NCBI GenBank assembly: GCA_964016885.1
Contig: OZ024742.1
Location: 340,132,001-340,196,000, forward strand
Origin: Eledone cirrhosa
Lineage: Eukaryota
Direction: 5' to 3'
DNA: 64,000 nucleotides
Shown here: in pieces, positions 23,028 to 55,652 of the stretch
Numbering within the stretch: position 1 is the first letter of the stretch
Layout: every line of letters starts with the position of its first letter
Position numbers and translations under genes: made by a program
Notes under the pieces: generated by a model
Databases searched by the model: none
What the model was told of the DNA's origin: nothing
Seen by the model: the letters and a program-made list of their open reading frames with translations, nothing else

Positions 23028-23760
23028 TATATATATATATATATATATATATATATATATATATATATATATATATATTGGTTGTGTGTTGGTTGTTTAC
23101 CGACACCTCAGTATGCAGGCTGGATCACTCGACGAAGTACGCAGGTTAGTTGTTTTACTCCGGAGTAAAGTAAAATAAGTAAGTCAAACAGGTTAAATTT
23201 GGCTTCGTTTATTATAAATTCTCTGCTATATATATTTCAGTAAGTAGACAGACAAAACAATAAATGTATGTTAGATTAACCCTTGATTGTGGTGGAAACA
23301 TTTCAGGCTCTAAACTTCATCAGAAGATAGACACAGAGGGAAGAGGGAAGGCTTAGAAGAAGGAAGATATACGAGAGTACAATAGAAAAAGAAAAATGGG
23401 CAAAAATGAGAAGAGAAAATGAAATAGGTCTAGTGGTGCAGATGTCATTTCTCACAGCCATCTTGAAAAATCGCTTCAGTATCTATCTATCTATCTATCT
23501 ATCTATCTATCTATCTATCTATCTATCTATCTATCTTCCTTACGATGGACACATGTGCTGAGCTCGCTCGGTAAGTTTTTGTTTAAATTCATACGGAAAT
23601 TGTAAACTGTAAACTTTCATTTTTGTACCATTTTGTAGAGGGACTGCCAGGTCAAATTTTGATCTGGTCGGTCTCTCAAAATATTCTGCGCCTTTGGGCG
23701 AAATAGTATTGTGAACATTTTATCTTTCGAAAAACTTCGAAAAACCCTATTTTGAGAAAA

Positions 23761-25615
23761 ATGGCTGAAGCATCTTCACCATCAATCAAAGAAGGAAAGG
23801 GGAAGTCATACTCACAGCTTCCCCCTGCCACTGTCACAGCAGCAGATGCCAAAGGCAGAGGTCAGAGAGAGGAAGAATTGTCTTCACCTGTTGACCGACC
23901 ACTAGATGTAGCCACAACTACACAAGAATTTGAAAACAACAACAACAACAACAACAACAACGACAACAACAGCAACAATAAAGACAACAAAAACAACAAC
24001 AACACAAACGTCACAAGTATCCACACACGAAACGAGAAAGACAACAACAACAACAAAGATGAAAACAACTCAAACGACGAGAAACAAAACAATACTAATA
24101 TCCAAAACGAAAACAAAATATCTTTTGCACAAACGGCTAAATTATCAGTCGCGTATGTGCTGGAAGATATTTCAAAAGCAAAAGAAATGCTGGAAAAAGC
24201 CAAGAAATATGTGTCTTTTGGCGAAAACGGTTCGTTTTCTATACATTCACCTCCGGAGCTAAAAAGACAGACGGAATTACGAACTGTCGTATTCCGAACA
24301 ATTTTAAATAAAACAAAGAAACCAGCGCAACCATCTCAAGCGGAAACTCAGTTAGTCTTGAAAGACGCGATGAGAGACATCACTTTCATACAAAAGGATA
24401 AACTCTATGGAAGTTTATCCATATTGATGAAAGACGAATTGGCGGCAAAAAAATACTCTGTGTCGCCAATTCGGTCCACACACTACACCTTCTTCCCCAC
24501 CTACATGGGTAAAAAAACCCAGAGGATATGGATAACCACCATCACCCCAAACATAAACTACTGGTGGTTACTAACCGGTTTCCTCAATTTAGACGAGGAC
24601 AACCTCATCTCAATAGGGAAGGCATCCGGCGACGCGTTCAGTGGAACGAGCCTCGAAGTTCTGACCCAAATAAGGCCAGAACGCATCGCCCAAATCCCTG
24701 AGCGCGTCATGCTGGATGACCGTACCCACCTCAACATTATTGTGGAGGGTAGGCGTCCCTCCTGTTACCTCTGTGGCAATAGAGGTCACCTGAGGGCTGC
24801 CTGTCCCCAGCTCACACAGAAAAAAACACTGCTACCAACACCAACACCACCCCAACTACAACAACAAAAACAACCACAACAACAACAAAAACCAACAATC
24901 CCACCACCACCACCACAACAACAACAACAACAAACACGTGAAAAAATAACACAGAATACTGTCCCACCCAATCCCTCCCCACCCAAAACAAATACAAAAA
25001 CACGCACACCGCAAACACTACCAGAAAACATACCCCTCCCACCCAACAAGGAAGACGAACCTCTTTCGTCGCAAGACGAAAAAGATCCCTTCCAACAAGT
25101 AAAAAGAAAGAAGAGGAGACGCACCACAGACACACATGTTAACTTTAATCCCCCCCAAGAGAACACAAACTACACACAAACCACCCCTCCCTGTCACACA
25201 ACACTAACTGCTACACAAAAAAAGACATTACAATACACATACATGAACACAGACAACAAAGAATTACGGAAAACAATTTCAGCAAACCCTTCGATCCAAA
25301 CTGAAGGGCCAAACTTTATAACTGCTGTGGGACTACCTCATTTGAAAATGATAAAAGTCCCAATGCACTTGTACAAAACACTGAAAATAAATTTCACGGA
25401 GGACGTGGGCCCCCCCCTGCGCCAAACCAATCAACCGCGTCCTCCTAAAAAATTTCACCCCTCCACCCCACCCAGACACCCACTCAACGACAAACACCCC
25501 AACCCCACAACACACCGATGCCCCTTCACTTCCACAAACCACAACCCCACCCAACAACCCATCCCCAACCAGCATGGAAATTGAGCGGCCCGTTTCCCGG
25601 GACGCAGAGAGGTAA
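23761..25615 (+). CDS. Tx1 ORF1 (Asn-rich N-terminus, CCHC zinc knuckle, Pro/Thr-rich C-terminus); +1 frameshift near 25417
   Basis: ATG at 23761 (MAEASS, like MAEATA at 44212); CYLCGNRGHLRAAC; open to 25584, but the paralogue-like C-terminus continues in another frame to TAA 25613-25615. Confidence 0.85.
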
Positions 25616-25639
25616 GTGCCTTTTCTCTTTACCACCAAC

Positions 25640-28600
25640 ATCGCTGTGCTAAGAGTAGGGTGTCTAAATGCGCGTGGTCTGGGCTCGTCTTGGAAGCAAG
25701 CAATGCTTCTAAATGACCTCAGGTCACAATCTATAAATGTGATGGTTATCTGCGAGGCCCGGATCAGCAGCATGCGACAGCTAGCCCCCACCTTTGACGA
25801 CTTTGAGATGCACGCATCTCTCTGTCAGCCCGGAGGCGGAGGTGGGGTTGTCGTTCTGCTGCAAAAACATATGGGCCTTGCAACACAGATAATTCACTTG
25901 GACCCAGGGGGTCGACTGGTGGTGCTGGACCTTGGCAGTGGTGAAGGTAGAGCCTTTAGGCTGATAGCCGCATATGCCCCTTTTGGGACAGAGCGGCCCG
26001 ACTTTTTCCAGCGTCTGGAGTCTTTTCTAGGGACGTCCCGTTCCCTGCTTTTAGTGGGGGATTGGAATGGTATCCTGGATGCACGTTGGGACTATGCAGG
26101 GGCATGTCCCGATAGAGAGGGGTGCAACAGCCTCAAGGGGTTACTCGGCCGATTTGACCTGGCCGATAGATTTCGACTAGATTTTCCGACGGTGCCAACC
26201 TGGTCTTGGTCAAATCGCAGCGGATCATCTAGATCGTACCTAGATAGATTTTTAGTTAGAAATAAGGACAGGGACTTTTTAAGTTGTCCAGAAATGCTCA
26301 TGGTTGGCTATTCAGACCACAAGTTGGTGACCTGCATGGTCAACCTTGATAGAACGCATAGACAGGGCCCCGGTTACTGGAAGCTCAACTTGTCCTTGCC
26401 GGCAAGTAGAGCCTACAGGAATCGGATTAGTACGTTAGTTAAGGAACGGTTGACTGGAGCGATCGTCAACAGCAGGTGGTGGGTATCTCTAAAGAGAGAG
26501 ATTAGAGTAGTCTCGATTGAATTTAGTAAGGTTCTAGCTGCGGATAGGAATAGGAAGGAAAGGGAGCTAATAGATAGAGTAGAAGAGGCAATTAGAAGCG
26601 GCGACGTGGCCAGAGTGCTAGCGTCGAGAACGGCTTTGAGCCAGTTTTTCGACGCGAAGCACGAAGGCTGCGTTGTCCGAAGTAAAATACGTGCTCTAGG
26701 GAACGAGGGGGCCAAAGCTGTTAGCTGGGCCCGCGTGACAGAGGCCAACAGTGGAACTAAATCCACCATCCGGTCTTTGCGAGACCTGGATGGACGGGCG
26801 ATTCTTGAGCCTAAGCAGATATGTGAGGCCTTTCAAAGGCACTTTGCCCGACTGTTCGGGAGGGGCGGGGAGCCGGTTGGGAACGTGGACTTCGGTCCAT
26901 ACCTCGACGGCCTGCCGCGCCTCTCGGACAGGGAGGCGAAGTCCTGCGAGGAGCCGATTTCGGCCGCTGAGATAGAGGACGTGCTGAGCCAATGCGGCAA
27001 ACGCAAATCCCCGGGTCTCGATGGTCTTCCTTACGAATTATATATAGCTATGCCGGACTTGTTCCCCGATCTCCTCGAGGCGGTCTACTGCAACTGGCAA
27101 CAGAACGGGAGAATTCCCTGTACTGTGACCAAGGGCGTAGTCACGCTAGTGAGGAAGGACGAGAACAAGGGGGACGAAATAAGTAACTTCAGGCCCATAA
27201 CTCTGCTAAATACAGAGTTACAGATTTTGGCCAAGGTGCTAGCAAAGAGGTTGGCGCTTGTCGTGGGCAACCTGGTGGGAGATGCGCAGACATGCGCTAT
27301 CCCGTCCAGGTCCATCCATGACAACCTCCACCTCATGCGATACATCATAGAGAGGGTTGGGAACGAACCCGGCTTTGGTGGGGCTCTGATCAACTTGGTT
27401 CAATCTAAGGCGTTCGATAGGGTCGACCATGGTTACCTGGATGCGGTGCTAGCGGCGGCAGGCTTCGGACCCGTTTTCAGGGGCTGGATCACTGCTATGC
27501 ACAGCAGCCGCATCTGCTCTAGGGTCAAGGTGAACGGCTACCTCTCGGAGCCGTTCAAAATCGCGCGGTCCATCCGACAAGGGTGCCCTCTCTCCTCCCT
27601 TCTGTATGTGTTGACTCTCGAGCCACTACTGCGGAAGTTGGAGTTGTTGCAGGGCATCCCTTTGGAACCGGGATTGCGGAAAGCGGTGTCAGCCTACGCC
27701 GATGATGTGACAGTAATGGTGTCGACGGCCTCCGAAATCGAGGCGGTCGGCACCTTACTGGAGGAGTACGAAAAGTTCACAGGGGCTAAGCTGAACCGGG
27801 ATAAGTCGATCGGTTTGCAACTCGGCACGTGGAGGGGTAGAGCGATGCCCTCTGATGGCGTCGTCGGACGCTGGACGGAGGGCCCGGTGAAGTTGCTCGG
27901 GGTCTGGTTCGGACCGGACCTCCAGGTGGAGAAAAACTGGGCGGAGGTTACGAACAGGGTGTTTGCACTGACCCAGAAGTGGGCCAGTTGCAAACTATCC
28001 CTGAAAGGTCGGGCGGAGGTGGCGAACACTTATATAGCGTCCGTCATCTACTACCGCCTGACCGCAGTGCCCTGCCCAAGGGAAACCCTCACCAAGATGG
28101 AGCGCGCGCTCTTCCAATTCCTTTGGAAGAGGCGGGCTCCTATGGTGAGGAGATCCATCTGCTGTCAACACCCTTCGAAAGGAGGGCTGGGGATGCCCTG
28201 GCTAATGATGCGTAAACACGCATTAAGGCTACGGCACCTCTACGTATTCCTCACCAGACAACCGGTGTGGGCCTCGTTTGTGAGACGAACCTTTCCCAGA
28301 CTCGTCTCACTCACCGAGCTGCAATCCTGGGTCAAGCAAAGACCGAGAAAACTGGGCGCCTGGCACACTGAGTGTGCCCAGGCGCTCACCGCCCTCTGGC
28401 AGGCGGATCCGGTTATCAGTGGAGACTCCACCGCAACATTCTATAGAGGGCTGGTACGCAGCAGGTGCGACGACGCCCTCGGAGAAGCCCTAGACATGGA
28501 GGAGGACGAACTGGCCAGCCTGTTCGGTAGGACATTCAGCCCGGGACCTATGGACAACTTCCAGAAGTCCCTGGCCTGGCAGTGCTACCGAGGGGCTTTA

Positions 28601-55095: not shown

Positions 55096-55156
55096 TATCT
55101 ATCTATATATCTATCTATCTATATATCTATCTATCTATCTATCTATCTATCTATCT

Positions 55157-55519
55157 GGAGAGAGAGGTGCTGCACCCCAGCCGTTTCTATGAAAGATGGG
55201 TGAAAGTGGCGAGAATGGCCCGTGTGAATGGGCCTTCACTCTACATCAGACTATAGGTGAGGAAGATGAAAGACCAAGGGAGCACCCCTTCTCTGTGCTC
55301 CTGAGGAGAAGGGTTGCACACTTTTTTCGGGGGTGTGTGCGACCCCCCAAGGCGCCTCCTCTCCATTGAGGATTTTGTTAAAAATTTTATTTTTTGTTAT
55401 ATCTTATTTTATTTTTATATTTTGTTATTGCCTCCTCCTTATTGAGAACGCCTTTTTGTGTAAACTCCCCCCTTTGTACTTGTCCCACTTTTGATGCCCT
55501 AGTGGCAAATAAAAGAAAT
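55157..55519 (+). mobile_element. Very short 5'-truncated Tx1 copy H (A-type 3' UTR)
   Basis: EREVLHPSRFYERWVKVARMARVNGPSLYIRL + 3' UTR; (TATC)n at 55520-55595. Confidence 0.9.
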
Positions 55520-55652
55520 ATATCTATCTATCTATCTATCTATCTATCTATCTATCTATCTATCTATCTATCTATCTATCTATCAATCTATCTATATATT
55601 TATATATATATATTAATTTTAAAATGTTTCTTGAAATCGTGTGTCGAAACAA

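What the first reader, a model, noticed from the sequence alone, without database searches (positions are those of the whole stretch)
23480..55595. Tx1 retrotransposons specific for (TATC)n build self-extending tandem arrays
Seen: all eight copies A-H are co-oriented, with (TATC)n at both junctions and no poly(A) after AATAAA. 43026-55595 is six head-to-tail copies from several subfamilies, with different truncation points and decay levels. Known: some Tx1-clade families target microsatellites (Kibi (TC)n, Koshi (TTC)n) through their APE endonuclease. Inference: a (GATA/TATC)n-specific lineage whose every insertion regenerates its target. I do not know of a description of it but cannot check.
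Basis: partly seen in the sequence, partly recalled or inferred. Interest (0 to 1): 0.75.

Follow-up and report, generated by a model that had tools for sequence, protein, structure and literature searches.

The report
TATC-seeking LINE stacks head to tail
Eight copies of a young, abundant jumping gene (a LINE retrotransposon) sit head to tail between TATC repeats; the family lands on a short TATC-like motif, strongly favours TATC microsatellites and duplicates its landing site, which likely explains the pile-ups and likely adds a new target to a known class of repeat-seeking elements.

Summary
Observation confirmed: eight co-oriented LINE copies, six head to tail at 43,026-55,595, each followed by TATC and without poly(A). 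Copy A is intact (zinc-knuckle ORF1; APE+RT ORF2). Genome-wide there are 2,531 exact 3' ends, about 96% followed by TAT(C/A)T, about 46% by (TATC)3 and about 8% by TATATA. Target-site duplications (median 14 bp, n=34) give the site C|TAT(C/A)T(A/T)T. TATC is therefore the target, not a tail, but it is strongly preferred, not exclusive: 31 of 67 unselected copies lie in (TATC)n. Half have a co-oriented neighbour, which is what target supply predicts, since 23 of 28 sampled TATC arrays already abut the family. Stacking is mostly sequential insertion; one stack elsewhere is a tandem duplication. A sister family (endonuclease 60% identical) does the same on (ATT)n. Full-length copies often carry extra TATC units at the 5' junction. 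It works like Kibi/Koshi and crocodilian Tx1; strict Tx1-clade placement was not testable. I found no paper on it (10 searches, Repbase unavailable). The scan noted this family before on other DNA. New member of a known kind.

The parts
23480..23535 (+). (TATC)14, 5' flank of copy A
23541..29341 (+). Copy A, full length and intact; 99.3-99.4% identical to copies on other chromosomes
23707..25584 (+). ORF1 of A (stop to stop, 625 aa; first ATG near 23762) with a CCHC zinc knuckle (below Pfam cut-off, E 0.0034)
25616..29077 (+). ORF2 of A (1153 aa): APE endonuclease, reverse transcriptase, C-terminal zf-RVT
29342..29361 (+). (TATC)5 between A and B
29362..31570 (+). Copy B, 5'-truncated, 97% to A, frameshifted, other 3'-end variant than A
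31571..31618 (+). (TATC)12 after B, running into (TA)n
43027..43039 (+). (TATC)3 before C
43040..43994 (+). Copy C, 5'-truncated, 98% to A; followed by (TATC)2
44004..47902 (+). Copy D, 5' end present, decayed (6 stops in ORF2), deletion from about 47738 into a 3' UTR; followed by (TATC)3
47916..48864 (+). Copy E, truncated, 76% to A; followed by (TATC)5
48885..49450 (+). Copy F, truncated, 82% to A but 99% to copies elsewhere (young member of another subfamily); followed by (TATC)20
49534..55095 (+). Copy G, full length with a different 5' UTR, decayed; followed by about 15 TATC-like units
55157..55520 (+). Copy H, 364 bp 3' fragment, 99.5% to a copy elsewhere
55521..55584 (+). (TATC)16 closing the six-copy stack
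62948..64000 (+). (ATT)14 followed by the 5' part of a related LINE that ends outside the window in (ATT)n: sister lineage on another microsatellite

Best explanation
This is a young L1/Tx1-type non-LTR retrotransposon family whose copies sit at the motif C|TAT(C/A)T(A/T)T, mostly in (TATC)n, flanked by target-site duplications, and whose APE endonuclease likely picks that site, so that repeated independent insertions likely built the head-to-tail stacks. Shown: the motif, the TSDs (8-21 bp in 31 of 34 informative sites), the element-encoded last base, no poly(A) and no added 3' repeats, co-orientation of neighbours, mixed subfamilies and ages in a stack, and a sister family with the same 3'-end layout on (ATT)n. 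Inferred: the endonuclease nicks the GATA strand at AGATA/G; the freed 3' end primes reverse transcription at a fixed point of the RNA, perhaps helped by pairing with a read-through UAUC; the second nick about 14 bp downstream makes the TSD. Each insertion splits one array into two and duplicates a few units, and full-length RNAs likely bring 1-3 more TATC units from the donor's upstream flank. As (TATC)n is scarce in this genome and most arrays already touch a copy, new insertions mostly land beside old ones, in the same direction because the target is asymmetric.
For: 2,531 exact 3' ends; 2,425 followed by W-TATMT (97 of the first 100), 1,173 by W(TATC)3 (42 of the first 100), 211 by W-TATATA; anchors differ in length, so the ratios are approximate. 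TSD matrix from 34 of 118 copies with an unambiguous register: +1..+5 TATCT 29, TATAT 4, other 1; -1 is C in 27; the last element base equals the target's -1 base in only 5. No extra 3' units in 27 of 28 informative sites (70 further copies were uninformative). 5' versus 3' unit counts symmetric in 34 copies, p=0.72. In 180 kb of background only 14 of 11,123 TATMT sites lie in (TATC)>=3, against 31 of 67 insertions: roughly 170-fold preference per site over isolated motifs and several thousand-fold over (TA)n (order of magnitude only). 23 of 28 sampled arrays abut the family; 6,783 AATAAA-N6-8-(TATC)5 sites versus 88 for the control. All downstream neighbours found were co-oriented (26 of 26). 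ATT sister: 29 of 30 3' ends run into ATT units, 10 of 10 full-length copies have (ATT)n on both sides, three with an upstream neighbour; endonuclease 60% and RT 76% identical. APE catalytic motifs are present and align to an L1 endonuclease chimera. Tx1L endonuclease nicks its own target almost exclusively (PMC1950540, passages).
Against: 15 of 67 complete unselected copies have no detectable TSD and 3 have (TATC)5-16 on the 3' side only; L071, L080 and L111 look similar. These could be target deletions, later rearrangements or occasional tail addition. No empty allele was seen, so pre-existence of the arrays is inferred. A triple at C3:217.9 Mb has two units with 0 differences and identical junctions, that is duplication or assembly artefact, not insertion. 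No biochemistry: endonuclease versus RNA-DNA pairing is not separated, and PMC1950540 notes that in vitro nicking is looser than in vivo sites. The array sample comes from the first 20 Mb of one chromosome and its members are clustered.
Confidence: 0.8

Rival explanations
1. Target choice is set mainly by RNA-DNA pairing: transcripts read through into the donor's TATC flank (and start in it), and only nicks whose 3' end pairs with that UAUC tail prime reverse transcription, so the target is inherited from the donor's site; the endonuclease is only loosely AT-specific.
For: No poly(A) although AATAAA lies 6-8 nt from the end; TATC and ATT families share the 3'-end layout; extra TATC-like bases at full-length 5' junctions where the target has none, e.g. 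L185, L342, L356; PMC1950540 raises such pairing as a contributor.
Against: Copies at TATATA sites are not clustered on the tree (19 changes versus about 21 in shuffles; 112 of 500 shuffles as low; 26 TA and 42 TATCT copies), so no TA-inheriting lineage is seen; C at -1, outside the pairing region, is favoured (27 of 34); no extra 3' units in 27 of 28, whereas pairing to a multi-unit tail should sometimes add them.
Confidence: 0.12
2. TATC is an element-made tail (telomerase-like or slippage-born) and insertion is near random; 5' TATC comes from neighbours' tails.
For: 3 of 67 copies have long TATC on the 3' side only, 15 have no TSD; most arrays touch the family.
Against: TSDs in unique DNA begin with the TATCT itself and carry no added units; 5' and 3' counts are symmetric; (TA)n sites have TA, not TATC, after the element.
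Confidence: 0.04
3. The stacks are segmental or tandem duplications, or assembly artefacts.
For: True for one triple elsewhere (0 differences between two 5.7 kb units and identical junctions).
Against: Window copies are 71-98% identical with different truncations, 5' UTRs and 3'-end variants; F and H are 99% identical to copies elsewhere but 79% to each other.
Confidence: 0.04

Closest known systems
Kibi (TC)n and Koshi (TTC)n, Tx1 clade, teleosts (Kojima and Fujiwara 2004, seen only as cited in PMC3812793 and PMC4494074 passages)
   Same: APE-type LINE inserting into a pyrimidine-rich microsatellite strand; targeting attributed to the endonuclease.
   Different: Target unit TATC, which is not among the units listed in those passages; about half of the copies lie outside true arrays; relatedness to Kibi/Koshi not tested.
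Crocodilian Tx1 families on (TTCC)n/(TTTC)n (PMC4494074 section 15 read)
   Same: Tetranucleotide microsatellite preference; this family passes that paper's criterion for target specificity (more than 20% of flanks).
   Different: Other unit and host; here a near-saturation of the arrays and a sister family on (ATT)n.
SINEU-3 / Tx1-Mar tandem insertions (PMC4494074 passage)
   Same: Tandem copies sandwiching a TSD, explained by sequential insertion.
   Different: Target there is a Mariner element; here a microsatellite, autonomous copies and stacks of at least six.
Waldo (ACAY)n, Mino (AC)n, Dong (TAA)n (PMC3812793 passage)
   Same: Non-LTR elements targeting simple repeats; Dong shares the TAA/ATT unit with the sister family found here.
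   Different: Other clades (R1 and R4 by my recall); no close relation tested.
HeT-A/TART/TAHRE telomeric arrays of Drosophila (PMC5537684, search listing and start of abstract only; details recalled)
   Same: Head-to-tail, co-oriented, variably truncated LINE arrays.
   Different: Those attach to chromosome ends and have a host function; here arrays are interstitial with TSDs and no function is indicated.

Membership tests
APE-type non-LTR retrotransposon, L1/Tx1 group | ORF2 with N-terminal APE endonuclease, RT and C-terminal CCHC | tested here: met
   Pfam Exo_endo_phos, RVT_1, zf-RVT (the last below cut-off)
APE-type non-LTR retrotransposon, L1/Tx1 group | RT closer to L1 than to R2-type elements | tested here: met
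   168 bits to human L1 ORF2p versus 70 bits to R2
APE-type non-LTR retrotransposon, L1/Tx1 group | 5' truncation and TSDs typical of target-primed reverse transcription | tested here: met
Tx1 clade | RT phylogeny groups with Tx1L, Keno, Mutsu, Kibi, Koshi | tested here: inconclusive
   No reference elements available. Scores 268 bits against a coral protein that NCBI names 'Transposon TX1 uncharacterized 149 kDa protein' (automatic name) versus 168 against human L1; the RT tree of 24 rows holds no curated Tx1 member and does not join the family to that protein
Tx1 clade | Two ORFs, ORF1 with a single CCHC zinc knuckle (feature recalled) | tested here: met
   CX2CX4HX4C at ORF1 352-368, E 0.0034, below Pfam cut-off
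Microsatellite-targeting LINEs (Kibi/Koshi-like behaviour) | Same repeat on both sides in more than 20% of copies | tested here: met
   25 of 67 with at least 2 units on both sides, 31 of 67 with array edges; criterion from PMC4494074
Microsatellite-targeting LINEs (Kibi/Koshi-like behaviour) | Exclusive insertion into the microsatellite | tested here: not met
   14 short-motif, 4 (TA)n and 15 TSD-less sites of 67
Microsatellite-targeting LINEs (Kibi/Koshi-like behaviour) | Endonuclease cleaves the repeat specifically | not testable with these tools
   needs a nicking assay
Kibi/Koshi lineage | Monophyly with Kibi, Koshi and crocodilian (TTCC)n families | not testable with these tools
   Repbase not available; supplement of PMC4494074 could not be read

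The most novel reading that the evidence does not exclude
A radiation of LINE families in one animal genome has switched between microsatellite targets (TATC, ATT) and farms its own target: transcripts start and end inside the donor's repeat, carry TATC units to new sites at their 5' end, and use them to prime and seal insertion, so that most of the genome's (TATC)n microsatellites were multiplied by, and now serve, the retrotransposon, with stacked copies feeding each other's transcription as in HeT-A.
Probability: 0.15. Interest if true: 0.7.

Novelty: new member of a known kind. Interest (0 to 1): 0.4.

Why it matters
Microsatellite targeting by APE-type LINEs is known but its molecular basis is described as poorly understood (PMC3812793 passage). 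Two young families with many intact ORF2 copies in one genome, 60% identical in the endonuclease and aimed at different repeats, are a ready pair for domain swaps. It also means that most (TATC/GATA)n loci in this genome are LINE junctions (23 of 28 sampled), which matters for marker design and for how these microsatellites multiply. The class of phenomenon is not new.

Tried and rejected
Empty-site search: runs X1, X5, X4 and X19 laid on 22900-32400 gave no joint that skips A or B; contigs were short and repeat reads were skipped, so this says nothing. No RNA holder listed. Inherited TA targeting: not supported (copies under 800 bp and non-TATCT/TATATA ends were left out). A first impression that the T-ending variant favours TA sites (7 of 18 versus 9 of 82 rows) was not borne out as tree clustering. 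Preference for element junctions beyond target supply: not seen. 3' tail addition: 1 of 28. 3' UTR hairpins: two short stems, one pair with changes on both sides in 3 of 7 sequences, covariation term only -0.3 kcal/mol: suggestive at most. Naming homologues: 0 of 10 clusters had names; the representative search has no names; the protein atlas gave no result. Literature: 10 searches found no description of a TATC/GATA-targeting LINE; an Octopus vulgaris annotation lists 13 recently active L1-Tx1 families with no targets in the passages seen (PMC13282606). Kojima and Fujiwara 2004, Repbase and the PMC4494074 supplement were not seen and could hold it. No structure prediction was run.
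Full report
Observation. The window lies at G000:C3:340,132,001-340,196,000 of a 3.0 Gb animal genome; earlier AI notes call it octopus-like, which I did not test. Self-comparison and reading confirm eight co-oriented copies in two stacks, A-B and C-H. Every junction holds TATC units, and these are all 10 (TATC)>=3 runs of the window. Copy A is intact: ORF1 with a CCHC knuckle and a 1153 aa ORF2 with APE endonuclease, RT and zf-RVT, nearer to human L1 than to R2 (168 versus 70 bits). 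The others are truncated or decayed, 71-98% identical to A; F and H are 99% identical to copies elsewhere, so young copies flank or separate old ones (that comparison is only against loci fetched here, which favour A-like copies).

Family size and age. One 31-nt 3' end occurs 2,531 times, one 33-nt 5' head 177 times; all 140 scored RT matches are 99-100% identical and many lie in a full 1153 aa frame. Further subfamilies have different 5' UTRs on the same body.

Target or tail. About 96% of the 3' ends are followed by one element base and TAT(C/A)T (2,425; 97 of the first 100), about 46% by (TATC)3 (1,173; 42 of the first 100) and about 8% by TATATA (211); anchors differ in length. I took the first 68 copies by position on C1 and read both ends. 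One was incomplete; of 67, 25 have at least two units on both sides, 6 sit at an array edge, 3 have TATC on the 3' side only, 4 lie in (TA)n, 14 are at short motifs with a TSD and 15 show no TSD. Pooling with copies chosen for likeness to A gave 118 copies, 34 with a TSD of unambiguous register: consensus C|TAT(C/A)T(A/T)T, median 14 bp; the last element base matches the target's -1 base in only 5, so it comes from the element. In 27 of 28 informative sites the 3' side has no more TATC units than the 5' side, and unit counts are symmetric (p=0.72). TATC is therefore the duplicated target, not a tail.

How strong is the preference. In 18 arbitrary 10 kb stretches, 14 of 11,123 TATMT sites lie in (TATC)>=3, 868 are other TATCT, 8,827 are in (TA)n and 1,414 are other TATAT. 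With 31 of 67 insertions in arrays this is a per-site preference of order 100 over isolated motifs and 1,000 over (TA)n. It is strong, but 'specific' overstates it. TA-site copies are scattered over the family tree, as expected for relaxed recognition by one enzyme.

Why stacks. There are 17,144 in-phase starts of (TATC)5 (arrays starting with a partial unit are missed) and 6,783 sites where AATAAA precedes (TATC)5 by 6-8 nt, against 88 for the control. Of the first 30 array hits (28 distinct arrays) 23 abut a family member, 20 by direct homology and 3 through 5' heads verified afterwards. Among unselected copies 24 of 34 at arrays and 9 of 33 elsewhere have a neighbour, and every downstream neighbour is co-oriented. 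Stacking thus matches target supply: arrays are scarce, most already touch a copy, and each insertion splits an array and duplicates some units. Against a purely insertional view, a triple at C3:217.9 Mb has two identical 5.7 kb units with identical junctions, so duplication or misassembly makes some stacks; not those of this window.

A 5' detail. At full-length heads where the TSD can be delimited by eye, 8-15 extra TC-rich bases, mostly with 1-3 TATC-like units, lie between TSD and head in L064, L069, L074, L075, L105, L185, L187, L207, L342 and L356, including a (TA)n target (L185) and a unique-DNA target (L342); none are seen in L078, L099, L358 and L368, L091 has other letters, and most of the 51 heads and 17 pairs are uninformative. 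Three unlinked copies share the same variant unit just before the head (L063, L066, L105). The simplest reading, inferred, is that transcription starts in the donor's upstream repeat, so full-length insertions can seed a few units. Slippage during 5' joining is not excluded.

Sister family. Its endonuclease is 60% and its RT 76% identical to A's, with fixed differences spread over the domain, including next to the hairpin region aligned to L1's specificity loop. Another ATT-flanked relative starts at window 62,990. The (TGTC)n sister mentioned in that note was not tested.

Mechanism. Shown: motif, TSDs, fixed 3' end without poly(A), orientation, mixed ages. Inferred from TPRT and from Tx1L biochemistry (PMC1950540 passages): endonuclease nick on the GATA strand, priming at a fixed point possibly aided by pairing with read-through UAUC, second nick about 14 bp downstream. 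Confidence 0.8; RNA-set targeting 0.12; tail 0.04; duplication 0.04.

Comparison. It works like Kibi, Koshi and the crocodilian (TTCC)n/(TTTC)n Tx1 families (PMC3812793 passages; PMC4494074 passages and section 15; PMC4640811 passages), and sequential tandem insertion around a TSD is described for SINEU-3. Membership of the L1/Tx1 group is met; of the Tx1 clade inconclusive; of the Kibi/Koshi lineage untestable. PMC5340908 passages added nothing beyond Mutsu's two-ORF layout. Ten literature searches found no TATC/GATA-targeting LINE, but Repbase, the 2004 paper and the PMC4494074 supplement were not seen. The scan has noted this family several times on other DNA of this and other genomes. Verdict: real, a new member with a new target of a known kind; interest 0.4.

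Noticed in passing
window 62948-64000 and L334: A second ATT-flanked relative (74% DNA identity to the ATT family over ORF2) begins after (ATT)14, ends in (ATT)n outside the window and is followed by what looks like another head.
   Followed up: partly
L244/L245 (C3:217,896,500-217,916,499): Five-copy stack; two 5.7 kb units are identical with identical junctions (duplication or assembly artefact). The unit is a mosaic: endonuclease 87% but the rest of ORF2 99% identical to copy A, with a D-type 5' head.
   Followed up: partly
L210-L213, L070, L071, window copies A, D, G: At least seven different 5' heads on related bodies, suggesting repeated promoter replacement; L210 has an open ORF2, 84% identical to A's.
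   Followed up: partly
window 3900-7050 (-): Decayed LINE of another kind (RVT_1 and endonuclease hits, about 20% identity to ORF2 of A), flanked by TG and TA repeats.
   Followed up: partly
window 37000-38760 (+): Degraded RT-like frame (weak RVT_1, E 0.08) followed by sequence that may encode a GIY-YIG-like tail, possibly a Penelope-like remnant (by eye, from recall).
   Followed up: no
window 17347-20541: GC-rich 25-bp minisatellite of about 122 copies giving long spurious open frames in several phases; further 47-bp (11014-11383) and 30-bp (11604-11934) arrays.
   Followed up: no
window 8610-9071 / 9387-9848: 462-bp inverted repeat at 95% identity, possibly a MITE or foldback element.
   Followed up: no
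window 23640-26250 versus run X4 (organism B): Contigs of another coded organism match copy A's ORF1 and endonuclease region with 0-3 differences per 160-390 bases, so this young subfamily is shared with a relative.
   Followed up: no
L183, L184 (C1:45.73-45.74 Mb), L169, L001: Copies inserted in minisatellites whose units hold a TATCT-like or TATAT motif.
   Followed up: no
window 29140-29200 and equivalents: Two short hairpins in the 3' UTR kept across subfamilies, one pair with compensatory change; weak support.
   Followed up: partly
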